From Octopus sinensis (Eukaryota): 64,000 nucleotides of DNA. Position 1 is the stretch's first letter. Each line of letters opens with the position of its first letter. The stretch lies in NCBI RefSeq assembly GCF_006345805.1, contig NC_043000.1:72230001-72294000 (forward strand), written 5' to 3'. Positions 1 to 62,648 of this stretch are shown here, in pieces. The notes beneath the pieces are model-generated. The model made no database searches, was not told the origin of the DNA, and saw nothing but the letters and a program-made list of their open reading frames with translations. The position numbers and the translations under genes were made by a program.

Positions 1-300
1 TTGCGGCGGCGGAGGTGGCGAAGGGCAATCGATTCAGCCCGAGTGAGGTTGTCTCGGAGGGGTCTTTGTTCAAAGTTGAACTAGTGGACCAACGCGTTGC
101 AGTCATGCACAAACAAATCTAGGCTACTGAATAGGCCTGAGGGCGGCCTCCAGTTGGATGGACGGCGCCCCAGCTCCAAAAGGCAATCCTGATTGTTGTG
201 ACGCTGCGGGGACGCGTGGAAGAATGCGCAAAATTTGAGGCGGCGCAGGAACAGGTTGACGTCAGTCCGAGTCTCGAACTCATCACAGTGGCGCGTGAGA
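1..300 (-). mobile_element. Penelope-like element, N-terminal ORF fragment
   Basis: DVNLFLRRLKFCAFF...SNWRPPSGLFSSLDLFV resembles the region upstream of the PLE RT domain. Abuts a (TA)n tract. Confidence 0.55.
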
Positions 301-6520: not shown

Positions 6521-7624
6521 GTTTGGTGTAGCTTGGCACGACGACCATTAATTCGACGGAACAGGACGCGACGACAAAGTTGAAGGAGCCGGAGTGGTAA
6601 GACGCGACGACGGTAAGTTCGACGAAACAGGATGCGACGACGAAGTTGACAGAGCCGGAGTAGCAGGACCAGCCTATCAGGTTGTATATATTTACATGAA
6701 ATGTTTAATCAGCCAGGTGGACCGGTGTTGACTCAGGTGACAGGTTCTAAGTCAGGCGGCATCTGTAAATTTACGTCAACCGTTTTAAAAAGTTTATCTT
6801 GCCCATAAATAGTACAGCATCATTTAATTTACTGCATCAAATCCCAAGATTGTGAAGAAATATATGTGGGTCAAACTGGAAGTGCACTATCAGAACATTC
6901 ACGTGTGCACCAACAGCAAATTAGAGACCCAAATGTTTGTCAAATACCTTTGAGTAACCATCAAGCAACATGTAGTCGGAAAATATCTTATTTCCATTCG
7001 ACAAACTACACAGTCTAAGTGAAATCGTGAGAAAACTCAGAAAAAAGAACATTATTGATAAATTCCAACTCGAGTTAAATAAACAATAATAATAATACTT
7101 AGAGCTACTAATTCTACTGCTACGACCACTACCACTAACATCAACAATGACAATACTAAAGGTTCTCATGATGACGATAGCAGAAAAATACTCGCTAAGA
7201 GAAAAGTCAGTAAAAATAATCATATTTAGGGTTTAAAGTTCTATTACCACAGCTACTCCTACCACCACCACCACCACCACCACCACCAATGACAACAATA
7301 ATAAAGGTGATGATAATGATGATGATCATAATTGAAACATAAAAATCCCTGGGGAATATTGTTTACAACATTTCCAAAAATAGTCAAACTATTACTGCTT
7401 TGGCCAGGGTCAAAATACAGGTCTCTTGACATGTTCAACAAACTGTGACGCCTAAACCAGACACCAATCAACTTAAGTAATTTAGTAAAGCCACACACGT
7501 TTTGGTCAGAATACAGTTTGCAAAACTTAACATTCTGGAGCTTATACAAATGTATTTAAGGTACACATTGTAACCATCCCACTACAGTTGTAAATTGTAA
7601 AGCATAGCTGTCATCACTACTATA

Positions 7625-29571: not shown

Positions 29572-31134
29572 AATATCCGCTAGCACACGCATACACAAAC
29601 AGATATATGCACATATTTGCATGCACGCATGTAACTATTCACGCATACTCACACAAATAGTTGTGACAGCTTGTATATCGGTGGTAAAATGGTAATTCTG
29701 GGATCGTTATTAATTCTTCCATACTACATTGCCCATTACACACACACATACGTACACACACACACAATTCTCTCCCTCTCTTTCTCACACACACATACAT
29801 GCACACACACTCATATACACACACAAACATATCTGTCTATATAATCATACACATGTGCATAACTATGTCCCTGTGCATTCAGACACAGGTATAAATATAT
29901 ATCTGAACACATCCGCACACATACGCGTGCACGCGCGCGCACACACTCACACACAGAAATACGCGCGCGCACACACATACACACGCATATACAAGTGCAC
30001 AATTACAATAACGTCCACATACTTGCGCTAAAAACACATGTACTTATATTGAGGAGGGGAAATTTATGACCGGTATGGCTGTTACAATTTCCTTCAGGCT
30101 TCTTGCAATCTTTTTCCTGGTACGTACATAGCTTGTTCAGCTGGTGGATTTTTCGGTATTATATTTGCTATTTTCAGCACACTGACATATTTATCATTTG
30201 CATGTTGGAAAATTCCGATATAGTTTTTTTTTATCCTTATATACACTTGCCTGTGTTCCACTATTCTTTGAGCTCTGCCGCGAGTGGTTTAACATAAATG
30301 TTTGGATAGATTTGTTGCAGTTGACCTTCATAGTTACACGTTTTCTTTTAGAATTCATTTTGCATTCTATATAGGTTATCCTGTCAAGGGGGCATGTCAT
30401 ATCTGGATATGATGTAATGGAAATGTCTGATTTTTAGTTACTTTAATCTTTAGTTCTGTGTCGATTACTGCTTTTCTTAATTTATGGGCTTCTTCACCTT
30501 AAAACATTACTCTCTGGAAATTGTCACTATCATACTACGGACCTGCCTTACCACCTGTGTTATTCTTTCTAACCTAATTTACTGTAGTTACCGTGGAGAA
30601 AAATTGTTCTCTTTTATGGTAAACGCTGTAAAAAACACCATATCTGACCAGTGCTGCTGCCTATCGGATTCTCTATGATAACTGCAGTGTGTTTGCCTTT
30701 AGAATTTGAAATGCTACAAATGTATTTTAACTAACCTAATGTTCGTTTATGCCTAAACATTGCTTGGCACTGATACTGCCAAATTTCTTCTGACCAGACG
30801 GTCCCATGGCGTAACTCAGTGCTGTTGACAGTGCTTTAGTTACAGCTACGTTTAAAAATCTTCCCCAGAATTACTTCTCTTTCGTATTTCGCATCGATGA
30901 CGGCTAAAGAGCTAGAAACGCATCTGGGAATCCGATAAAGCGCAGCTATGGTGTTTTTACACCTTTAACGGATAAAAAGAGAATTTCTTCGCGATAATTG
31001 CAATGAATTTGCCTTGAGTAGTTGAAATGTGTCATAAATATATTTTAATTCACCAAAAGTTCGCATTTATAAATATACACATGCACACAAGGTGTCTGGA
31101 CTAAATTCGACAGTTTGCATAAAAGGGAAAAGTA

Positions 31135-33210
31135 ATACAGTTCTATATTTAAAAGATGAGGAATTATGTACATTATATACATTCGACGGATATTTGTCCT
31201 CATCTTGTTTGTTGTTAATACAACGTTTCGGCTGATATACCCTCCAGCCTTCTTCAGGTGTCTTGGGGAAATTTCGAACCTGGGTTCTCATTTCTAAGGC
31301 ATTTTTCGATGTTGTTGTTTTTATTATTATCATTATTCAGGTCACTGCTAGGAATCGAACTCGGAATTATAAGCCCGCGCTCTTAACCACTACGCCATAT
31401 GCCCGTGGGCAATTATAAAGTGAATTTTAGGGCTTATAAATCTAATAATTTTCTATCCTTCCTTAATACTGGTCCCCATATGCTGCTCATATCTGCACTC
31501 GGTCTGCTTAGGAGGTTGTTGTGTCCTAGCATATGTGCTGCTTCTTTTAGTTTTCGTACTTTCCAGTGGTGTTCTCTGTCTATTATTTTAATACAGGGCG
31601 AGGTGGTCTCCATTCAAAGGAAGGATAGAAAAATATTAGATTTATAAGCCCTAAAATTCACTCTATAATTACCCACGGGAATATGGCATAGTGGTTGAGA
31701 GCGTGGGCTACTAACCCCAAGATTCCGAGTTCAATTCCAAGCAGATACCTGAATAATATTAATAATAATGATAATATTAATAATAATAATAATAATAATA
31801 ATATCAACAACAACAACAACAACAACATCGAAAAATACCCAGGTTCGATATTTCACCAAGACACCTGAAGAAGACTGGAGGGTATACAAGATGACATATC
31901 CATCGAATGTAAATAAAAATCTATTAACTAGAATATACCTGCGAGACAACAGCTTCCACTACGGCCTCAAGATAGCTACAGAACCTGGCGCATGCGTTCC
32001 TCACTGTGCCCCTGGGAAGATCTTCGAACACTTTTCCAGAGGTATGGCAAGGAGCCGTATACTGCTGCCACATGTTTGACTTTCCAGCAGCAAGCCTCTC
32101 CAGCTAGGGTTTGATCACAGTCTCCAACACATAGCCGTCTGAATTGAAGAATTCCACCTACTTCACAGAATTGACCAAGGACACCCCCATTGGTAAGTCA
32201 GATGGTAAGTCTAGATGTGATAAGTCTGTTCACCAAAGTCCCCTGTTCACCAAAGTCCCAACAAGAAAAACTAGTGACAGGCACCTATCAAAAAGATCGC
32301 ACAAGTATACCAATACGAAATTTGATGGAAATGTTGACCTTCTGTTTAGAAATTATATATATCGACAAGATGACGGTTTAGCTATGGGTTGGCCATAATA
32401 GCCAATATATACATGGAACACTTTGAGAATCTGGCTTTAGGATCAACACCACTAAGGCCAACCCTATGGCTTCGATATGTTGGTGACACCATTATACTCT
32501 GCCCCCTCCCAGGAAGATATCCAAGTACTGCTAGATCATGTGAACTCAATAAAGCCATCCATACAGTTCACAGTGGAAAAGGAAAAAGACAAACAGCTAG
32601 CATTCCTGGATGTATCAATAATACGCACTAAGCATGGGTTCAGGACATCCATATACCGCAAGCCATCACTGGATACCTCAAAAGGAGAGGGATTGCTCAG
32701 TGCCTAAAGCATCGAGCAAAGAATATAAGTAGCAATCGTGATACACACCACGAAGAAATGATCAAGCTAAGTAACAATCTATTAAGCAACATAATAGACT
32801 GAGAACACCACTGGAAAATACGAAAACTAAAAGAAGCAGCACATATGCTAGGACACAATAACCTCCTAAGCAGACCAAGTGCAGATATGAGTAGAATATG
32901 GGAACCGGTATTAAGGAAGGATAAAAAGTATTAGGTTTATAAGCGCTAAAATTCTCTCCATAATTGCCCACGGGTATATAGCGTAAAGGTTAAGAGCATG
33001 AGTTATTAATTCAGAGTTCAATTCCTGGCAGTTCAGTTCCAGGCCTTGAATAAATAATAATAATAATAACATCAGCAAAAATTACTTTTTGAACCCAGGG
33101 TTGGATTCAAAATTCTACCTGGACACATTCAACAACAAGCAAAAGATGAGGACACATATTCGTCCAATATAAATAATGTACAGGATTCCGTATCTCTAAA
33201 ATATAGAACA
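31135..33210 (+). mobile_element. Penelope-like element: inverted pLTR, pLTR, degraded RT, pLTR
   Basis: RT fragments YRQDDGLAMG, IANIYMEHFE, WLRYVGD and SIQFTVEKEKDKQLAFLDV at about 32350-32670. Repeats at 31135-31470 (-), 31617-31920 (+) and 32915-33210 (+). Confidence 0.85.
31217..31262 (-). ncRNA. Hammerhead motif with loop-less palindromic stem III
   Basis: GACAC-CTGAAGA-A-GGCTG-loop-CAGCC-GAAAC-GTT-GTATT. Confidence 0.72.
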
Positions 33211-42300: not shown

Positions 42301-42590
42301 GGAAGAAGATGGAAATATCAATATAGCAAAAGTTTAATATCGAACCACATTATATAGAAATGATTGTGTGTGATTAATTACACAACCCATATTGAATAGG
42401 GAGGAGTGACACCTCATCACATACTTACCAGCCTGTTCTATTATACATGACGTTTATGAAATCTAAAATTGTATAGGCATGTTAATGAAAAGCACTAAGT
42501 TCAAATTATTACATAATTTACCCTCGTATTATATTATTTTTATGCTTAACTTGAAATTATATAACGTATAATTACTGCCTTCTCTTACAG

Positions 42591-43184
42591 TATGTCGAAA
42601 TATTATGGCTGATGTCTATTTTCTAATGGATTCTTCTTCGAGCATTCGAAAAACTGATTTCAGAAAGCAACTGCATATTTTAAGAAAAGTTATATCCAAA
42701 TTTCAGCTAGGATCTAACAAAACACGTGTTGCCGTATCATTTTTTACTCACCAATTCCTTCCTGTATGGAAACTGAACGACTTACAAGATAAATCAGCGA
42801 TTCTAAGACGTATTAAATCCCTAAAGTACCTGGAAGGCGCCACAAAAACTGGTTATGCTCTTTACAAAGTAAGAACACAAGGCTTTATATGGCAAAATCA
42901 GCAAAATGCTGATCAAATTTTAATTGTATTTACCGACGGTCAGTCGAGTGATTACAAACGGACGAGATACGAGGCAAAATTATTGAAGCGAAGAGGAGTT
43001 AAGATATTCGTCGTTGGAATTGGTCCCTACGTTGATAAGGAAGAGCTGAATAGCATCGCAAGTACACCGTCCATAGAATATGTGCATACTTTTGATAGTT
43101 TTAACTCTTTATCAATGACCAGCGGAATTCTGAATGTAAAAGCATGTTCAGCAGTGAAACAGATGTTTTTTAATGACCAAAATG
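42591..43184 (+). CDS. VWA-domain protein exon, one complete VWA domain (phase 1-1)
   Basis: cttacag acceptor and gtaagt donor. CRNIMADVYFLMDSSSSI...TRVAVSFF...GATKTGYAL...LIVFTDGQS...IFVVGIG...LNVKAC. Matrilin/collagen VI-like architecture. Confidence 0.92.
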
Positions 43185-44804
43185 GTAAGTTTTTGCTTAA
43201 ATGCATTTAATGAAATTTTTGTTTTGCAATATAATGAATATAATGTATGTATCATGTATGATAGGAATGAAATTTGTACTTTTATTGTGACGGGTCATAT
43301 TTATATCTTGTAATTTCTTTTGAAACTCTGCAAAACAAATTCATTGAAATTTATCAGTGAATATATATGTACTGAATGAACGAGAACTGTTTTGTGCATT
43401 CAGTATGAATTGTTTAGGAGTTAGAATTTACGGAGTATTCTAGATTGCCGAATTTTAAACCGGCGTAATTAGATTCAAATCATATCCTTGTTTCTTTTCT
43501 TAATTGGTAGAAAAAGACTGATATAACATGTTTGTTGACTGCTAGTCACTAGCTGTTAATGATTATTACCTAACTAAATGCTTAATGATACACCACCAGG
43601 TCTGAGAATCAAACTCACGGCCATATAATCGTGAATCCAACACCTTAACCACCTGACCCCGTACCTTCATATATATCCTCTAGGTCGGGTTAGGCCAGGT
43701 ATGGGAATATGTGCAATTGCAGAGCTTTGCTGCATTCACTATTTGTCGGTATATTCCTGGGTCCTCTCAGGCGACCCGTTGAGTAGAGTCCCAGGCAATC
43801 CCTATCTCCACAAGATACCTCCTTATCTGTCGCGACCATGTGTCAAGTGGTCGACCAACGCGAGACGCCAACCCAACCTGATCCTCAATAGTTCCTCCAA
43901 TACCCTCAAACAATAAACCACGAAGTCTTCCATTTCTCACCTTTTTATATGCAGAAACATATCTCGAATTTTTAAAACACACTACATTATGCTCCATTTC
44001 GAAGAAAGGTAATCTGAAGTGTCTAGGTTGCATTTAAGCGATGCTTGTCCTGGTGGCCATACCAAAGGTATATAAGCACCACAATATGTAAACACCATTA
44101 GGTATAAACTCAATAGGACATATATCATTGTTCTATTGGATGGGTAGTAAAGATCATGCACTGTGGTCAAGATAAATTCGTCAAATTTAGAAAACAGAAC
44201 ATTTATGGAGAACTAATAAAAAACAGCTCTTATTCACTATATTGATTTTTATTTGTACGTATTATCATAGGTGCATTGAGCTATGTAACAATACATTTGC
44301 ATAAACGAACAAAGCCAACTGATTTCCAATCTCCAAATACATTCGGTTAGAGTAGTGAAAACATTTCAGGTAGCGCTAGAACTTAACTTCTCAGAGGGAA
44401 ACGGTAAAGATTTGTAGAGATCACCTAAATATGGAAAGTCTTTGAAGAGCATTTACCAAACTTCGGTATCCATAGCTATACTATATTTCAAACTGTCATC
44501 ATTGAATAGATCCAAAGGACTCCATCAAATGTTAGGACAAAACTTTTCAATATATTATCTATGAAACTAATAAATCTACATGGAGTGGATTTAAATGAAT
44601 TTAAGAAGCACCTGGATACTCTATTACCTACGATTCCAAACGAACCAGTGCCAGACAAGAAATGTGCAACTAAGCGGCATCAGACTCCTTTATTTACCAA
44701 AAGCTACAGTCCTTCCTGAAAGTTAAAAGTACTGTAGAAATAGTACAAGATCCACTCTAGCTTAGCTGTAGTCATCAAGCTGAATTGAAACTAATAAAAT
44801 AATA

Positions 44805-51157: not shown

Positions 51158-51180
51158 GTAAGCGTCTAGTGTGAGGCGCT

Positions 51181-51292
51181 CATTTCAACTAGGTTTCCGA
51201 AACTGTCACCCATCTAAGTACTCACTAGGCTCGACGTTGCTTAACTTCGATGATAAGACAAGATCCGGTGCATTCAATGTGAAATGGCCGTG
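51181..51292 (-). pseudogene. Degenerate 5S rRNA-derived sequence
   Basis: Minus strand CGGCCATTTCACATTGAATGCACCGGATCTTGTC...CGAAGTTAAGCAACGTCGAGCC...AGTACTTAGATGGGTGAC follows the animal 5S layout with many substitutions. Confidence 0.75.
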
Positions 51293-51428
<136 letters not shown>

Positions 51429-52376: not shown

Positions 52377-53685
52377 ATTTTTCTAATTCATATATATATA
52401 TTTCATGCAATTTACGCATGCTTGCACGCGTGGTGAACACAGTTCACGTCAAACAGCTGACTGAGTAAAGTTCATTATTCAATGCATGGGACAAGGCCTA
52501 AACAAACACATTATCGATTTTTGCACTTGCGTGATGAATTTCGGAACAGAAATAGCGCAGTTCAATTTTCATTCATCTAAACTTTAAGTGACCCATTTTT
52601 GGAGGTTCTACGATTTGTTGGCTAGGAGGAGATGTGCCGGGAAGTTAAACACACAGACACACACACACAGATACACACACAGATACACAAGTTGAGTTTC
52701 ATATATATAGATATATAACAACTTTTCTCTTTTATCTAAAGGTATTGATATAAAAAATGTTTAAAGCAACTAACAAAAAGATGTTGTTTATTTACTTAGC
52801 TTATCGGAGGAAGAATTCCGTAATAAATATGAAGAGAAACTTAGAACTACAATAACTACAACCTATATAGCCCCATAAATATAGAGTTAGGCTATAATAA
52901 TGGATATCTATTACTAGTTTTTCAGAGATAACCAAATATGAAGTTACTAAAATAAGGATTATTCGCAGTAACTAACACGTAGATGTCCCTATATACGTAT
53001 ATTATGGAAGGAAGATCTCAGTAAATAAAATAGGATAAGCAAAAACAAGAGTTGAGTATCTACCCACCATAAGATGTAGTCAATATTATTTTTTTTAGAT
53101 AAAGGACTATAAATAGTATATATACAAACCTAGACTTAACTTTGACATCTCATTAAACCTTAAATCCGGATTATACTATCCCTACAGGAAACTAAATGAA
53201 ATCACTAAATATGTTAGCAAATTCTCCAATCACCCCACCTCCTCCGTTAGCAATTCTTTAGCTAAAAGTATTCCATGTAGAATTACGCAACTCTCGATGA
53301 ATGAAGATATTTTCAATTCATACTCTCATTTTTACAATTCAGCTCTTTCTAACGCAAGATATAAACCGTAAGTTGTATATGAAATCTCTGCTGCCACTGG
53401 CTCATATATTAGCAATGACATGTGTAGTGGGGTGCAGATGGTGATAGTAATGTAGTGGCACGTGGCCGTCTAAGTAAGAGAAATCTAGATGACGTTATCA
53501 CTCCGACTTCTATAAATTCTGGCAGAAATATAGGCCTAAATAAATCACCCATAATTAACAATGAATCACTTAGAAAAAGCATGGTTATTGATGATATTAA
53601 CCATTCAAATGGGGATACTGGTATAAAAAAATTCGGTAAAAATAAAGGCAGTAAAAGTAAAAATCTAAATAAAAATGATAAAAAT

Positions 53686-53721
<36 letters not shown>

Positions 53722-53734
53722 AATAATACATTAC

Positions 53735-55267
53735 TTACATTATTTATATTTGACGGATATTCGTCCTCATCTTGTTTGTTGTTAACACATTTTCGGCTGA
53801 CATACGAGGGGCGTTCAATAAGTAATGCCCCTGATCCACTTCCCATAGAAGTAGAGCAACGAAACTTGGCACAGTTATTAGTCTTTTTCTACATAGAAAC
53901 CAACCAGAGTTACGCATTTCTACCATCGTTTGATGCAGCTCTGGAGACCGTTTTTGTAGAAGACCCCAGCTTGGTCCTCCAACCACGACGTGACGTCAGA
54001 AATCAAGGCTGCATCATCTGGGAAACGCTTTCCTTTCAAAAACAACTTCATGGCTGGGAAGAGGTGAAAATCCGAGGGTGCAAGGTCAAGAGAGTAGGGG
54101 CATGGGGGAGGAGTTCATAGCCGCACGCCTGTGCTTCTGATCTGGCGACCATCGAGTTGTGGACCGGAGCGTTGTCCTGCAGGAGGAGGATGCCTTTGCT
54201 GATCTTGCCCCGCCTCTTGATTTTGATAGCTTCTCTTAATTTCCTCAAAAGTGAAGCATAATAGGCTCCTGTAATTGTGGTACCCTTTGCCAGGAAATCT
54301 GTCATCACTACTCCGTCCTGGTCCCAGAAGACTATGAGCATGACCTTGCTAGTGGGGGGCTGCACCCTTGCCTTCTTTGGAGGAGGTAAGTCACGGTGCT
54401 TCCACTGCATTGACTGGGCTTTTGTCTCTGGATCATAGTGATGGACCCAGGTTTCATCCTGTGTAATCAGTCTTTTGAAAAATGTTGACTCATCTTCTTG
54501 GCACATCTCCAAATTCATCCTCGAGCACTCGACGCATTCTTGCTTCCGGAAAGGTGTGAGCAGCCTGGGAATCCATCTGGCAGACACCTTTTGCATATGC
54601 AAATGGTCATGAATGATTGGTTTCCACAGACCTGGTACTAATCTTGACCTCGTGGGCTATTTGCCGAATAGTTATGTGTCGATCTTCCAAAATGGCAGCC
54701 TCAACTTGATGGACAGATGCCTCATCAATAGCACTAGGGGGCGACCAGATCTGGGAGCTGTTTCCACAGAGTTCCGACCATGTTTGAATTCACAATGCCA
54801 GCGTTTTACAAGGTCATATGATGGGGCATCCTCACCATAAGTTACTTTTATTTCATCAAAAGTCTCCCGTGGTGTGCATCCTTTCAAATATAAAAAGCGG
54901 ATCACTGCCCGACACTCAACAGGCTCCATTTCACACTTGACTCAGTTCAAACACCTGTAAATCAGAAACCACAATTAGTTCAGAGCTGTAATTTACTACT
55001 TAATCTATAGAGATATAGATAATTGCACATGCAAAATTTCAGCTAGATCAAACAATTGCAAGTGGGTCAGAGGCATTACTTATTGAACGCCCCTCGTACC
55101 CTCCAGCCTTCATCAGGTGTCTTGGGGAAATTTTGAACCTGGGTTCTTATTCCTAAGGTATTTTTTGATGTTGCTAATATTATTAAAGTCACTGCCTGGA
55201 ATAGAACTCGGAATCTTCGGGTTAGTAGCCCGCGCTCTTAACCACTACGCCATATGCTCGTGGGCAT
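53735..55267 (-). mobile_element. Solo tRNA-head/HHR unit, interrupted by mariner
   Basis: 53735-53804 plus 55097-55267 is colinear with 31175-31410. Confidence 0.8.
53805..55096 (-). mobile_element. Full-length mariner element with frameshifted transposase
   Basis: TA TSD, TIR CGAGGGGCGTTCAATAAGTAATGCC, and motifs WIPRLL, ITQDETWVHHYDPE and LLQDNAPVH. Confidence 0.95.
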
Positions 55268-57761
55268 ATTTAGGGAATTTACTTGAATAGTATGCATTTA
55301 TATCAAATTGAAGGAACGAGAACGTCTATTCTGTAATGATGTAAACCAGGATAGGACTTCCTTAGTGTTAGACCATAAATTAACGTCAATTTTTGGAGTA
55401 AATTTAGGTATGATCTTATCTAGGATAGACTTACTAAGCCGGCCGATATCCGATCTAGTGGGGCATATGAGTCCAACGGCAACAACACAAATGAAAATCG
55501 AAATAAAAACAAAAGTTCTTCATACAAACCCCAAACTAATTATAAGAATAAGAAGCGTAGCGTACACAAAGGTAAAAACGGGAATAAATGTGGCGTAACA
55601 TGGTATAACCCACCCCCTTCAATTACATAATAATATTAATATATGTAGAAAATTATTTAGTATACTAAAGCGCAATTTCCCTCCTTCACACAAATATTAC
55701 CGTTTATTCTCCCGCAGAAATGTTAAGGTATCCTACTCAACTCTCCCAAATCTAGGTACAATTATAGCTGGCCTGAATAAAAAGCACATATCCGTGGCCG
55801 GATATTAAGAATAATACTCCTAACAGCACCGCTCTTAATAAAAATTGCAGTAAGAATAACCATGGTAATAATGTTAATATTCGTCGTATTACAACAATCT
55901 CAATCGACACTAATACTGTACACACCAATACGAACAGCGAGCAAGCCCTACTAATTAGTAGATATTATATTGGCATCAGTCAGCCTGCCATACAAGGGAT
56001 AGTAGCAGTAATAACTCTGCCACAACAACTCATGGTAGTAGGAGTACTGATTCTACCAGATTAATCTAACACCATACCACTCCCTACAATCCTAAAACTC
56101 TCTCCGCTAGCTGTAAGGACCACCCATCTACTTCCATTCATGTTGTCAATATGCTCAACGCACAGAACATTAACACTTGTGCTGAAAAATTTTCCGTTAT
56201 ATCGCCCACCCTTGTCTCTCTAGTGTCACTATCTGGAAGCGAAATCTCTTATTACAATGCTCAGTACCAACATTCTGCGACCCTGGGCACGGTAACTAAT
56301 TATAATGGTATTGATATTAGTAATATAAACCCCGGTAACAACCATGCGAACACCAGTAACTCCCGCGAGCTTGAACTATTACACCATAATAACGTAGGAT
56401 CGCGTACCCGTAATAACAAGTTTCATGTCTTAGAAAATATTGGGTGCAATCGTTTAGACACAATGTCAAGTGTGGTGTACAAGTGTAATGTTGTGACGGA
56501 AACCGATACTTATATTTATATCGGTTGCTCCATAAATCTCAAGGAGCGCTTACGTAAACATTATTCTTCATTTAAATTAAGACATGGGGCAGGCAGGAAT
56601 TCTCTAGTCACGAAGATTTTGGAGCTTAAGGATGACAATGTTAAATTTGATTTGAGTTGGGACATCATTAGGGTCGCTAAAGTGCACTCGAACAACAGAT
56701 ACGGGTGCAGGCTTTGCTGCATGGAGCTGTTTGAAATTCTAATAAATAACCAATGAGACCGTCGTCTTTCCTGTATACATAAGGCTACCCGCACCTTTAA
56801 ATATTTTAAGAACACTAAACAACTTCTATAATAGCTCCTAACCCAGGACCAGTCAAATTTTATTCCCACTATTATTGATTCAAAAGTCGATTGACCTGCT
56901 TAATTGTTTTAAGTCCTACTTTCGTTCTCTACCTTACTTCCTAACCACTCTTATTATACTTGTATGGTATGCTATATTGAAGGAACTAACCATTCTATCT
57001 GTGGTGAACTCAGTATTATGCAATAGCGATAGCAAACTAGAAGTAGCAGCTGCACATCCTTGCCAGTTCTACTAAGATACCAAGATACAGTTATTTGTAT
57101 TGCGCTTGTTAAATAATTGATGGAACACACTCTCCAAACATCTTAGCCACGATTGTTGTCCGGAGTTGTATGGCCTCATTTGCACAGTGGTGATTATACT
57201 ATCTAATTAAATAATATCAACGTCACCTATATAACATTCGATGTCATTAATCATTAGACTACTTTCTACTGCTGACTTTCTCAGATATCCCATTTAATTT
57301 TTTTCTCTAACGCCGTTGGGTTATTATATAACGCCACATTTCTTTGAATGCCTAAATGATAAGTAGTACTCTACTATTACTCCCAGGGTTTTCCTCTCCA
57401 AGCAAACATGTCCTAATATTATAAGTGGTCCTCACTAACCCACATAACATATTCGTATCTAAAACAACACCCTATAACTTTCCACTTTACCAGATAAATC
57501 ATAAAACCTTATTAGTCGATTGCCTTCGTACCTTCCCCCAACTTTCAACCTTTATCCACAGAATACTTCTAAATTCTGTGTATCTCCACCCGCCTCCCTT
57601 TCTTCTTTAGCCTTAGCTAGCGAACCCTAAACTCCGACCCTATGTCTATGCATTTATTTTTCTTTACTAGGTCTTCTATTAAAAAATGAGTAAGAAACAG
57701 CTGTAATGAACTGACAATTATCCATCGTCTGTCAGTATTAATTTAATTATATATATATATA

Positions 57762-60700
57762 CTAGCAGAATTGCCCGGCGTTGCTCGGGGCTGAATTGCT
57801 TGAAAGTACTGTTAATGATTGCACTGAATTATGATGATTATTCAGGCAAATATTGATATAAGTTTACGGCGAATGAATGTATTTGTAAGTGTATAGAAAG
57901 CCGTGTAAAGGTGTTCCTACCCCCTCGTAGAATGGTGTAAGAATTGAATGCGAGGTTGCCTTGAAAAGAGCCATGTTATTGTTCTCATAATTGTAAGAAT
58001 TTGATAGTCGTGGAAGGTGATGTAGAACGTTCGCAGGTGAATAGGGTCTCTTCGTTTTGCACGAACGGCAGCGGATGTGCTGTTACAAAACTTGATGCTG
58101 TGTTAAAAGAGAGTGGATTTCATATGTAGCAAGAGAGGAATGAAGCATGGGTAAGTAAATATGTGTAATTTATAAAATATAGAACAATAGCATCTACTCA
58201 CCATATGTCAGACCGGCAAGACTGTAGTGGTGCTGATTAGGTGAATCACAATACAATGGTGGAGATGTTTTCATTGATGGGCGTTTTGATTAAATTTGTT
58301 GTTGTATAAAATGATCTGTTGATTAGTTTCGAAAGTGTATGTTGCGATCGTGTTGTCGCTCATGTAAACTTTAACAGTGAGAGTGTAGATGTAGGGGGTA
58401 GATGTGTCATGTACGTTGGATATAGAAGATGAGGCTGGTGGTTTGATGATGAATGGATAGAAATAGAGTTGAGCGAAGGACAGGTGTTGGTTAAGTGTGA
58501 GTTAATGTTATGAAACGCCTAGAAATGTAAATGCCGTCATAAAAGAGAGTCGTATGTAAGAGAAATACTAACGTGTTTGAAAATGATGAAACGTAGTAAT
58601 CCTATAAAACCTCCTTGTACACAATGTTTTTTGTTTTTCGTTGTGGAAGGAATGCGAAAGCATCACTGTTGCTGCCGACACGCGAGCAGCCAACGTAAAG
58701 CTGACCATGAGAGAAACATGGCTCTCCCAAATGTATTCCTGCCACAGACAGTGTTTAATCCTGCACTTTGTTAATTGACATTGCGAAACATGACCTTACT
58801 GGGAACTGGGACCTCTGAAATATGAAAGATAGGTCTGCTCCTGATGGGAAAAGATGCATCCTAGGTATGAGCACAACGTTGCCTCGACCGCACCCTGTGA
58901 TAATGGTGGCCTCAATCAGATTGGGAGATAAGGACTTAACGATCAAACGTGTGCCATTACATTGTTTTGGGGAACCAAATTTCTAATGAGCATTATAGGG
59001 GCACCAACTTTAAGTTTGAGAATGTGTGGTGGTAGTCCGGGGGGGGGGGCTCAAAGGAATTGAGTACCTCTATTGGATAATTGATGACGTCGTCTGGGTC
59101 AGGAGTTGTATCGATAGACTTATATACATAGACATCCCCAGGAATGAGTTTTAGCATTTCATCATTAATATGGTGAACAGTTTTATTCCTCGGGGCCAGA
59201 ATAGCCCTTTGGCCAATCCAATCCATATTCTGATAATTAGCTTGTAGATCTGGGAATACTGCATCTCTGAGATCAGAAGGCGTGTTAACAATGGTACAAA
59301 TGGAATTGATGGCAATATTACCATTTTCATCCCCTGGTATTTTGCCTTCGCCAAGTGCAAGGAGGGTGTGAGAAAATGCTGCTGATGTGATATCACGTTG
59401 CATATGAGCACGCATATTGGTGTGAAGTTTGAGAGTCTTCACCAGTGGCCACAATGTGGATGACTTAAGACACGCACTTACAGCATCAGCTCTAGTCCCT
59501 TTGGGAATAACGGGAAGTGTTTGTCGGAAGTCCCCTGAAAGAAGAAGTGTTATGCCTCCCATGAGAGCTGAAGAGTGTTTGATGTCTCTGAGAGATCTAT
59601 CTAGTGCCTCAAGAGCACCTCTGTGGGCCATCGTGCATTCATCCCAAACGATAAGCTTGCATCGTCTGAAGACTTCTGCCTGATCGGAGCTGTTACTGAT
59701 GTTGCAAGTTGGTGTCTCAGTCTTCGCTAAGTCAAGTGGGAGTTTGAAAGTAGAGTGAGCTGTCCTGCCACCTGGCAACAAAGTAGCCGCAATTCCAGAT
59801 GATGCCACAGCTAGGGCAATGCCTTGTGTTCGCCTAATCTCAGCCAATATTAATTTGTTGACAAAAGTTTTCCCAGTGCCCCCAGGAGCGTCCAGGAAAA
59901 AAATGTCCCCAGCTTTGGCCCGGACTGAATTAACAACGGAGTTGTAAGCGAACTTCTGTTCTGGAATGAGCTTTGGCTCATTGTCGGCTATGTACTCGGC
60001 AAGCTCGTCAACATTAAAACATGTCTCACGCAGCAAATGTGAAGACAGAGTGTTTGTGAAGACAGAGTGTTTGTTGAAGGTAGGCCATAGACCGGCAAGG
60101 CACTACCGCCCATATCGAGTACAGTATCTTCGATTTCAAGCAGCGCCCTGTTGTAAATGAGGTCAGTGTACCCCACCTCCATTGATGGATGTAGCGATTG
60201 AGCGTGACGTAGGAAATCTTCAGACATATCATCTTTGTAGGTAAACCATAAAGAGGCGGGATTAGCCAAGTCACACCATAGTAATAGAATAGCGAAAAGC
60301 GATCTGATTTTTTTAGGAGATTTTAATGAAACACCTTCTGCCATAGTGGCGCCCCATTGTGAATCATCCTCCAAAAGTCGACGCCGAAAACAGGCTTCAC
60401 GGAAAGTATCACATAATACACCATCAACAGTTCTGATGTCTTGAAAACTTTGTGGGCCTAAAACCTCATGGAGGAGAAGGCGCAGGTGAAAACAGTCATG
60501 TTGGTTTGGAGGTACAGTGTAGACTCTTCCTAGACAACTGTTAAACTTGACACCAGGATGTCCTTCAACATCCTGACCCGACTTCCTACGCACCCAATTG
60601 TTGTTTGACCACACGTAGTAGGACGGGACCTGAGGGTATAAAAGTGTTTTAGCAAATGTGCCAAGTTGGCAAAGCCTAAAGAAACCGGTCAAAGTTGTTT

Positions 60701-62648
60701 GTTTTGGATTTGCCGCCAAATCAGCTGCAGTCTGTTCAGTAAAGTAAGTTCGTTGGCCATTTTCCAAATGAACCGCTAGTTGTATGATGGCGGGGTGCCT
60801 TTGGTGAAGTGGAAACCCGAATATCCGCCAAAAAGCTTCACCACTGCTTATGTACCGACCTGCCATGTACTGTGACACCTCGTCCATGCTATTGTCCTTT
60901 TGAAGGCCAAACATGGCAGCGTCAGAACCCTTGTTAACATATTTACATATATACTTTATAGACTTGACTGAATGACAGAACTCCACATTTATGTGAGCGT
61001 TAAAAGTTTTCATCAGAAATGGACAGTACGGCACTACCCACCTATTATCCACTTGATGACCCCGTAACGTTATAGTGAATCCACCATTGTCAGGGTGCCT
61101 TCTTCTGTACAGTGGGTATCCGTCGCGGCCGGTCTGGGTCTCGTCCACGAACCTCTTTGGGTACCGTTTAGTGCACACGTGGTCTTTGTGGCATGAGGAG
61201 AACTTTTGAAAACCAGGAGCGCACGGACCGTGTACCATGTGTGCCTTCACAATGTCGTACAGCTGCCGGTTAACAGTTGGCTCCGGAATTTCTGCTGCAA
61301 TGAGATCATCAAGAACTGTTGGGTCTATTTTGTTGACCAACCAAAGCAAAATGTGCGCGTGTGGCAACCCTCTTTTCTGCCACTCAACAGTATACATGTG
61401 GCAGTTAACAGGCCGAAAAACCTGTTTTTTTTTATTAAAAGAATGAGCTTAGCCAGTTTCTGCCTGAAAACCCTTGCAATAATATCATGGCGATGATAGT
61501 ACTGCTGCCCTGGGAAAAGTTCTCGCGTTACCTCAACCCACTTTGGGTTACATGTAAAGGTAATGAATAAATCGGGTCGCCCATAATGCCGAACGTAAGT
61601 AATAGCGTCTTGTGTTCGCTCGTGCATGTACCGTGGGCCCCCTATATAGGTTGAGGGGAGAATGCACATTTTGCCGATATTGCGGGCGTCAGTGTCATTC
61701 TTGGTGAATGAAATGTGGAAAATTGTAAACCGTGGAAGGAAAAGAAATAAATATTAGCAGCTGAAAGAAATTTTTTATGCAAGTATAGCGACAGAGTGTG
61801 TAAAATGTATAGAAATTTGAATTAAAAGCCAGAAAAGAAAGTTAGATTTGCAAGAAAGGAAGTAGTTTACGTACATGTTCGAAATGTGAAGTGCTGTTTA
61901 ATCAAATATTTGCGTAAAGTGTATAGAAACGTAACTTGAAAAAGATAATGAATTGAAATTTTTAAGAAAGGAATTTGTTTACATACATGTGTGAAATGGC
62001 AAATGTTTGTGCAGTTGTCCGAAATGGAACCAGGGTAAATGTGTGGAACTGATGTATTATAATGAATAGTCCTTCTTGAACTGAAAACCAGTGGTGTAGC
62101 ATATAAGAGCATAAGAGATCTTCTTCTAGCCAAAATGGATGACCAGTCTGAATGGCTCACCCCTGTCACACACACACACACACACACACACAACACACAC
62201 ACACACACACACACTCACACAGACACACACACACACACCACTCACACAGACACGCACACACACACACACACACACACGTTAGCTTACAATGTCTGTCAAC
62301 AATTGACACTGTCGTATATATTAGCGTATCTATGTGTCTAAAGAGGAAGTGGGAGTAATAGGCAGAGTAAAGGCTTCAAAGTAAAAGAGTTAAATGTTAA
62401 AATATTGAGTTTTCTCGAATTTTGTCTTAAGTGGGGGTGAAATTGAAAGAAATTTTGTATGGCATGACCGAATGGAAGTACTTGTAAAAATCATAGGTAA
62501 ACTGTAATTGAAGAAGTTGTGTGAGGAGTAAATCGTTATGTATTTATTTGTTTCTGTTTGCTGTTTTTTTTTGAGTAGTGTTGTAAGGTACACTTGCAAA
62601 GAGAAAGTAGTAGAAATTAGGGTGATAGCATGAGTGAAGCAGTTCGCT

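What the first reader, a model, noticed from the sequence alone, without database searches (positions are those of the whole stretch)
31135..33210. Penelope terminal repeat that joins a tRNA-like Pol III head to a hammerhead
Seen: each repeat reads TGGCGTAGTGG (A box)...GAGTTCGATTCC (B box), then (AAT/AAC)n, then HHR, then a conserved tail. Three copies bracket a decayed PLE RT, one inverted and two direct, and a solo copy lies at 53735-55267. Inference: a SINE/PLE hybrid in which Pol III starts a short RNA that the ribozyme trims, i.e. a SINE mobilised by Penelope rather than a LINE.
Basis: partly seen in the sequence, partly recalled or inferred. Interest (0 to 1): 0.74.

Follow-up and report, generated by a model that had tools for sequence, protein, structure and literature searches.

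The report
Penelope retrotransposon with tRNA-derived promoter
These repeats are dead copies of the end-repeat of an abundant Penelope-type jumping gene that begins with a tRNA-like sequence, which likely lets the cell's small-RNA polymerase (Pol III) start, and possibly read through, a protein-coding mobile element.

Summary
The four repeats are real, but only one is complete. They belong to an abundant, apparently extinct Penelope/Poseidon-type family. Its terminal repeat runs: ORF stop, 29 nt, tRNA-like A/B-box head, (AAT)n, AUG, hammerhead. The hammerhead and the 'tail' are the first codons of the ORF.

5' ends pile up at the head: 20 of 36 copies that reach it stop there, against 5-7% expected. 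There is no pile-up at the ribozyme cut. Short copies carry Penelope-style inverted partners, two 3' ends and target-site duplications (23 of 58). They share alleles and age with ORF-linked copies, so this is not a separate SINE family.

New control: the 2.65-kb majority unit has no TTTT (Pol III terminator) on its sense strand. Other retroelements of the genome are not depleted, and 16 of 17 related PLEs have TTTT in their repeat. One headless relative also has a TTTT-free ORF.

Best reading: a captured Pol III promoter starts the element's RNA, and short copies are its 5' end, copied by internal reverse transcription. Pol III use is inferred, not shown. This scan noted the same family before on other DNA (unreviewed AI notes).

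The parts
31133..31614 (-). Inverted 5'-truncated copy: last ~60 codons of the ORF, stop, then a nearly complete terminal repeat
   Evidence: 90% to family majority
31336..31404 (-). tRNA-like head of copy 1; first G at 31404 is position 0 in this report; 8-nt deletion in the anticodon-like arm
31387..31397 (-). A-box-like motif
   Evidence: sequence
31351..31362 (-). B-box-like motif
   Evidence: sequence
31289..31291 (-). AUG at +123, first Met of the ORF reading frame in the tandem arrangement (inferred start codon)
   Evidence: relative P0003 begins with a matching N-terminus
31217..31262 (-). Minimal type I hammerhead (helix I 5 bp, unpaired A, stem II 6 bp, palindromic 4-nt helix III); predicted cut between 31222 and 31221; overlaps the ORF start
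   Evidence: layout as in PMC4209133
31434..31436 (-). ORF stop codon, 29 nt before the head
31617..31940 (+). Direct copy from about -59; head at 31677, expanded (AAT/AAC)n, 3' half of the hammerhead deleted
31936..32145 (+). Fragments of an unrelated, unidentified repeat
32145..32791 (+). Decayed RT segment of the family (frameshifts and stops; N-terminal 1.35 kb missing)
32788..33209 (+). End of endonuclease region, stop and 3' terminal repeat (head at 32972; A box damaged, hammerhead deleted)
53730..55280 (-). Solo copy starting at the head (55259) with a short fold-back; lies between Naiad-type PLE fragments
53805..55096 (-). Mariner-like DNA transposon with TA duplication, inserted in the hammerhead loop of the solo copy
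   Evidence: family name from recalled motifs

Best explanation
[quoted passage not shown] Shown: the layout, the pile-up of 5' ends at the head, two 3' ends inside the ORF start, inverted partners, target-site duplications and the lack of sense-strand TTTT. Inferred: Pol III initiates at about -2 to 0. The element's protein binds the repeat-ORF junction and starts reverse transcription internally at about +251 and +280, as shown in vitro for the anole element PAc. At the 3' repeat this gives ORF-linked, variably truncated copies. At the 5' repeat it runs off the RNA start and gives the 250-280 nt solo unit, which brings its promoter along. The ribozyme is not needed to make these copies. How an uncapped RNA would be translated is unexplained; protein may come from a minority of Pol II read-through RNAs.
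For: 5' ends: 20 of 36 tail-anchored copies that reach +4 stop at -8..+4, against 4.8-6.6% expected (p about 1e-14 or less). 57 of 90 head-anchored copies start at -8..+2 and 41 of 90 at -4..+2. Head aligns in register to tRNA genes of the genome (z up to 8.2) but is no tRNA (0 calls in 38 loci). Only 29 nt separate stop and head. 3' ends: 53 of 90 at +232..258 and 37 of 90 at +273..282, like the two RT start sites of PAc (PMC11167929). Duplications of 8 nt or more in 23 of 58 head-start insertions, control mean 1.7. No diagnostic allele between 87 head-start and 35 ORF-linked copies; divergence 6.3% (n=76) vs 7.5% (n=29), p=0.55. Both allele lineages hold both classes. TTTT: 0 in the 2652-nt majority vs 30 AAAA; coding part 0 vs 4.9 expected, P 0.004-0.008; 42 real open frames 17 vs 73.5. 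Same-genome comparators O/E 0.80-1.11 (8 Neptune-like copies of one family), 0.89-1.59 (11 Naiad frames), 0.99 (13 RLE frames). Related PLEs elsewhere: median O/E 1.14 in 77 loci; 16 of 17 have TTTT between stop and hammerhead, 0 of 17 a B box.
Against: No transcript evidence. RNA-seq reads lie equally on both strands, 71-89% run into unlike flanks, and no molecule starts pile up. TTTT depletion is weaker under stricter nulls: P=0.034 with own codon usage and 0.085 with a dinucleotide model, and the copies descend from few masters, so it is about one data point. The best-scoring metagenome relative (L457, 47% identity) has 0 TTTT in 1980 coding nt with no head seen and 6 TTTT runs in its repeat; 7 of 77 loci have O/E of 0.27 or less. 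One RTE-like frame had O/E 0.37. A native palindrome at -7..+5 can cause fold-back and probably explains the -7, -14 and -17 calls. Of 30 copies with the ORF start, only 3 clearly reach the head without a break (2 stop there, 1 runs to -56). ORF-start copies are rare (293 vs 3938 first-look candidates), so few templates would have to give thousands of solos. SINE-length limits for Pol III elements are 100-1300 bp in PMC10886601.
Confidence: 0.55

Rival explanations
1. SINE-like parasite in trans: Pol III makes only short RNAs from any repeat (3' repeats or solo units), the Penelope protein copies them, and the ORF is transcribed by Pol II from tandem or host promoters.
For: Same 5' pile-up and insertion marks. 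Unit copies vastly outnumber ORF-start copies. 39 of 93 full heads keep both boxes. The A161 allele is commoner in head-start copies (23 of 75 vs 3 of 28, p=0.13). It avoids the problem of translating an uncapped RNA.
Against: No solo-specific subfamily; pairs share few derived alleles in any class. It does not explain TTTT absence across the ORF. In PAc the minimal template needs 172 nt of ORF, beyond the RT start; solos here end 128-158 nt after the AUG, so by analogy they would be poor templates.
Confidence: 0.22
2. The head is a relic of an old SINE insertion, and the 5' pile-up comes from a Pol II start at the same place, from RNA processing, or from cDNA fold-back at the palindrome spanning -7..+5.
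For: D. virilis Penelope uses an internal TATA-less promoter in its repeat (PMC2377424). Fold-back junctions are visible. A headless relative also has a TTTT-free ORF. Boxes are only slightly better kept than the rest of the head (A 6.5%, B 4.2%, rest 7.7% substitutions).
Against: 41 of 90 copies start at -4..+2, many joined to inverted pieces from elsewhere in the unit or to plain flank. The head does not fold as a cloverleaf, which argues against RNase P. The T-rich stretch seen before the hammerhead in 16 of 17 relatives is absent here.
Confidence: 0.18
3. One reading: the hammerhead trims the Pol III RNA and defines the mobile unit, as proposed for schistosome Sm-alpha.
For: Hammerhead core intact in 52 of 86 copies, helices 87-96% paired. 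Sm-alpha is a precedent (review PMC6765202).
Against: Starts near the cut are at background (3 of 90). All 90 tail-anchored copies end 40-90 nt past the cut (these were selected on the tail). The motif is of the dimer-requiring minimal type, and no tandem arrays of solo units were noticed. In PAc, cleavage is not needed for insertion. No compensatory pair changes were seen.
Confidence: 0.05

Closest known systems
Penelope/Poseidon PLEs, e.g. PAc of Anolis carolinensis (PMC11167929, parts 1-2 of 4 read; PMC8557442, passages; PMC4209133, part 1 of 4)
   Same: One ORF with RT then a GIY-YIG-type endonuclease. Repeat made by partial tandem, hammerhead overlapping the ORF start, two 3' ends about 30 nt apart, inverted truncated partner.
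   Different: The repeat starts with a tRNA-like A/B-box head and has no TTTT. D. virilis Penelope has a TATA-less, LINE-like promoter and an intron (PMC2377424, abstract and Discussion read).
Schistosome Sm-alpha / Sj-alpha SINE-like elements (PMC6765202 and PMC2770079, passages; the 1998 primary paper was not held)
   Same: tRNA-related Pol III promoter followed by a hammerhead.
   Different: Non-coding, often tandem, depends on cleavage of multimers. Here the unit is part of a coding element and copies keep promoter and ribozyme uncut.
TRIMp3 elements Helenus, Ajax, Cassandra (PMC10886601, passages and section 4.1)
   Same: Small-RNA-derived Pol III promoter placed inside a terminal repeat; boxes kept, cloverleaf lost.
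   Different: Those are non-autonomous LTR elements of 0.3-1.3 kb; this is a PLE with its own RT and endonuclease.
Animal non-LTR retrozymes (bioRxiv 10.64898/2026.07.22.740005, parts 1-3 of 5 read; supplements closed)
   Same: Short hammerhead-bearing derivatives of PLE terminal repeats.
   Different: Tandem arrays, no tRNA head mentioned in the parts read; here dispersed monomers and head-to-head pairs.

Membership tests
EN+ PLE, Penelope/Poseidon type | Single ORF, RT followed by C-terminal GIY-YIG endonuclease, no Zn-finger linker | tested here: met
   Relatives at 53-68% identity hit RVT_1. GIY-YIG-like and Cys/His motifs read by eye in real copy L111 and in P0003, with no Cys linker (motif knowledge recalled). 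The family's own pieces gave no Pfam hit.
EN+ PLE, Penelope/Poseidon type | Pseudo-LTR from partial tandem, inverted truncated partner, optional 30-40 nt tail | tested here: met
   (inverted partner in 48 of 90; two 3' ends)
EN+ PLE, Penelope/Poseidon type | Minimal hammerhead in the repeat | tested here: met
   Structure and conservation; no Rfam hit; cleavage not assayed
EN+ PLE, Penelope/Poseidon type | Placement in the clade against named reference elements | tested here: inconclusive
   Tree of 16 proteins separates it from same-genome Naiads but holds no named Poseidon reference
tRNA-derived SINE (SINE2) | tRNA-related head with A and B boxes | tested here: met
   parent tRNA unresolved among 10 isotypes (43 genes) sampled
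tRNA-derived SINE (SINE2) | 5' ends at the head | tested here: met
tRNA-derived SINE (SINE2) | Non-autonomous lineage with its own source copies, distinct from the partner element | tested here: not met
   Shared alleles and age, no solo-only clade in 100-122 copies
tRNA-derived SINE (SINE2) | Transcribed by Pol III | not testable with these tools
   Indirect only (TTTT absence); RNA-seq uninformative
Non-LTR retrozyme / Sm-alpha type | Tandem arrays cut to monomers by the hammerhead | tested here: not met
   Copies seen are monomers or head-to-head pairs; no starts at the cut; only the first 30-90 matches per anchor on contig C1 were examined

The most novel reading that the evidence does not exclude
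An autonomous, protein-coding retrotransposon whose full 3-kb transposition RNA is made by RNA polymerase III from a captured tRNA promoter, with the whole element purged of Pol III terminators. Internal initiation of reverse transcription would make the ragged Pol III 3' end harmless and would shed promoter-carrying SINE-like copies from the RNA's 5' end.
Probability: 0.4. Interest if true: 0.85.

Novelty: new variant of a known kind. Interest (0 to 1): 0.62.

Why it matters
Pol III promoters in mobile DNA are known from non-coding parasites (SINEs, Cassandra-type TRIMs). A coding element that adopted one would break that division. It would raise a testable question: how is a retrotransposon protein made from, or alongside, an uncapped RNA? 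It also offers a route for SINE birth, a tRNA head joined to the recognition end of an RT partner, caught while still part of the autonomous element. The pile-up of solo 5' ends maps the RNA start of a PLE from genome sequence alone. Practical point: such copies are likely to be misannotated as SINEs.

Tried and rejected
Rfam and ARAGORN: no tRNA or hammerhead call in the window or in 38 head-bearing loci. Parent tRNA: the best scores (Arg, Cys, Thr, Ala; z 7.3-8.2) are too close, and only 10 isotypes were sampled.

Sequencing runs: no RNA holder listed. Three raw RNA-seq runs under a same-species label and contig runs gave only the pattern expected from copies inside host transcripts; no intron or molecule end was seen.

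A DNA search with 31930-32230 mostly returned another repeat. A Pfam family search for the PLE domain was not possible because the family is not in the library. A protein search found no intact copy among 150 scored (longest open frame 551 aa). The first tail-anchored run failed on a wrong offset and was repeated. The majority sequence keeps two frame changes that are alignment artefacts.

Rows dropped: 20 of 90 tail-anchored copies start in the (AAT)n tract with no same-strand head within 1.5 kb and were not counted as reaching the head (several abut other elements). 2 of 79 metagenome loci had under 800 nt matched. 19 of 36 with an ORF end had no hammerhead found by my pattern. 1 of 20 comparator loci had no long frame. 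5 of 18 RLE frames were duplicates or unsure.

Literature: searches (listings) showed no PLE with a tRNA-derived or Pol III promoter. Repbase and Dfam were not available, the O. vulgaris repeat paper was read only in passages (PMC13282606; PMC4758252 likewise), and no supplements were read, so a database entry may exist.

Full report
Observation. The window lies in a 2.72-Gb animal genome; its repeats look octopus-like, which is recalled, not tested. Four related repeats lie at 31133-31614 (-), 31617-31940 (+), 32788-33209 (+) and 53730-55280 (-). Only the first is nearly complete, and the solo copy is split by a mariner. Exact words of head, B box, hammerhead and tail occur 1547, 4704, 3223 and 5743 times, against 0 for reversed controls. 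With about 7% divergence the true numbers are probably several times higher (inference). Runs under five organism labels hold at least half of the sampled words (20 rows, 12 studies).

Anatomy. From copies that hold the ORF start and the ORF end, the unit is 2.65 kb. A relative at 56% identity has a matching N-terminus, and PAc has the same overlap. The head aligns in register with this genome's tRNA genes (z up to 8.2) but forms no cloverleaf. The family looks extinct here: no intact ORF among 150 scored hits.

Where copies begin and end. I used the first matches on contig C1 for each anchor. Of 90 tail-anchored copies, 36 reach +4 and 20 of these stop at -8..+4, against 4.8-6.6% expected from truncation rates on either side. 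Of 90 head-anchored copies, 57 start at -8..+2, 10 at -20..-9 (mostly fold-backs of a native palindrome) and 23 run on towards the ORF. Three of 90 start within 7 nt of the ribozyme cut, which is background. 3' ends form two groups, 53 near +251 and 37 near +280, matching the two internal RT start sites shown for PAc. 48 of 90 have an inverted partner. 23 of 58 head-start insertions have flanking duplications of 8 nt or more, against a control mean of 1.7. So the short copies are independent insertions made by Penelope-type machinery from an RNA that most likely began at the head.

Not a separate SINE. 28 of 30 B-box-anchored copies have the hammerhead part downstream, so no independent SINE with this head showed up. 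87 head-start and 35 ORF-linked copies show no diagnostic site (best p=0.017 among about 240 sites) and equal divergence. Two allele lineages each gave both kinds, and derived alleles are rarely shared.

Terminator test. The majority unit has no run of four T on the sense strand but 30 runs of four A. For the coding part the expectation is 4.9 (P 0.004-0.008) or 2.75 with its own codon usage (P 0.034); for the whole unit a dinucleotide model gives 2.4 (P 0.085). Real open frames give 17 against 73.5. A Neptune-like family, Naiads and RLE-type LINEs of the same genome are not depleted (O/E 0.8-1.6; family labels from recalled motifs). In 77 related PLE loci from metagenomes the median O/E is 1.14. 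Of 17 with a detectable hammerhead, 16 have TTTT between stop and ribozyme and none has a B box. Against: the best-scoring relative, L457, has a TTTT-free coding stretch of 1980 nt with no head seen, and 7 of 77 have O/E of 0.27 or less. Coding depletion alone is therefore not diagnostic; the TTTT-free ORF plus repeat is what none of the 17 shares.

Mechanism. Most likely (0.55) the head is a Pol III promoter for the element's own RNA. Internal initiation at the 3' repeat yields ORF-linked copies, and at the 5' repeat it yields solo units. The SINE-in-trans rival (0.22) fits the ends and the excess of solos but not the ORF-wide lack of terminators. A Pol II start, processing or fold-back (0.18) cannot be excluded. 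Ribozyme-defined units (0.05) are contradicted by the ends. RNA-seq did not discriminate. Translation is unexplained.

Novelty. Seven literature searches listed no PLE with a tRNA-derived promoter. The nearest described cases are Sm-alpha, TRIMp3 and animal retrozymes. Repeat databases were not checked. Eight earlier AI notes of this scan describe the same or a similar family, two in this genome and six in at least one other; none lies near this window. My reading was written down before I saw them, and they are not independent support. The comparator tests for terminator depletion, including the contrary case L457, were done here. Verdict: real feature, new variant of a known kind, interest 0.62.

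Noticed in passing
L047, L049, L051, L060, L068, L073, L076, L098 and others: The (AAT)n linker is a frequent landing site for AAT-targeting LINEs (RLE/Dong-R4-like, label recalled) and for a conserved short element of about 570 bp, sometimes in tandem.
   Followed up: partly
window 53120-53365 (+), 55253-55495 (-), 56469-56810 (+): Naiad-type PLE fragments in both orientations surround the solo copy.
   Followed up: partly
window 51177-51295 (-): 5S rRNA-like sequence above the Rfam gathering score (42 bits), next to a common short repeat; possibly a 5S pseudogene or SINE3 head.
   Followed up: no
window 6734-7086 (+); L427-L434: Fragment related to a young Neptune-like PLE family with near-identical, intact 775-aa frames elsewhere in the genome; Naiads with intact frames up to 960 aa also exist.
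   Followed up: partly
P0006 cluster: The closest named protein relatives (53% identity) are from a barnacle; close likeness across phyla may mean horizontal transfer, untested.
   Followed up: no
L528:2968-3035: A tRNA-like hit about 470 nt upstream of a truncated PLE match in a metagenome contig; probably an unrelated SINE or tRNA.
   Followed up: no
window 31936-32145; L152-L175: Pieces of an abundant unidentified repeat (1749 first-look candidates) sit between copy 2 and the RT.
   Followed up: partly
window 58996-61753 (-): Long open frames (369 and 486 aa) that read like a Helitron Rep/helicase (label recalled).
   Followed up: no
window 42572-43207 (+): 212-aa open frame that reads like a von Willebrand A domain exon (label recalled).
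   Followed up: no
G000:C1 pairs such as 21688780/21688874: Many B-box matches come as opposite-strand pairs 79-101 nt apart, which implies near-perfect head-to-head palindromes centred on the RNA start.
   Followed up: partly
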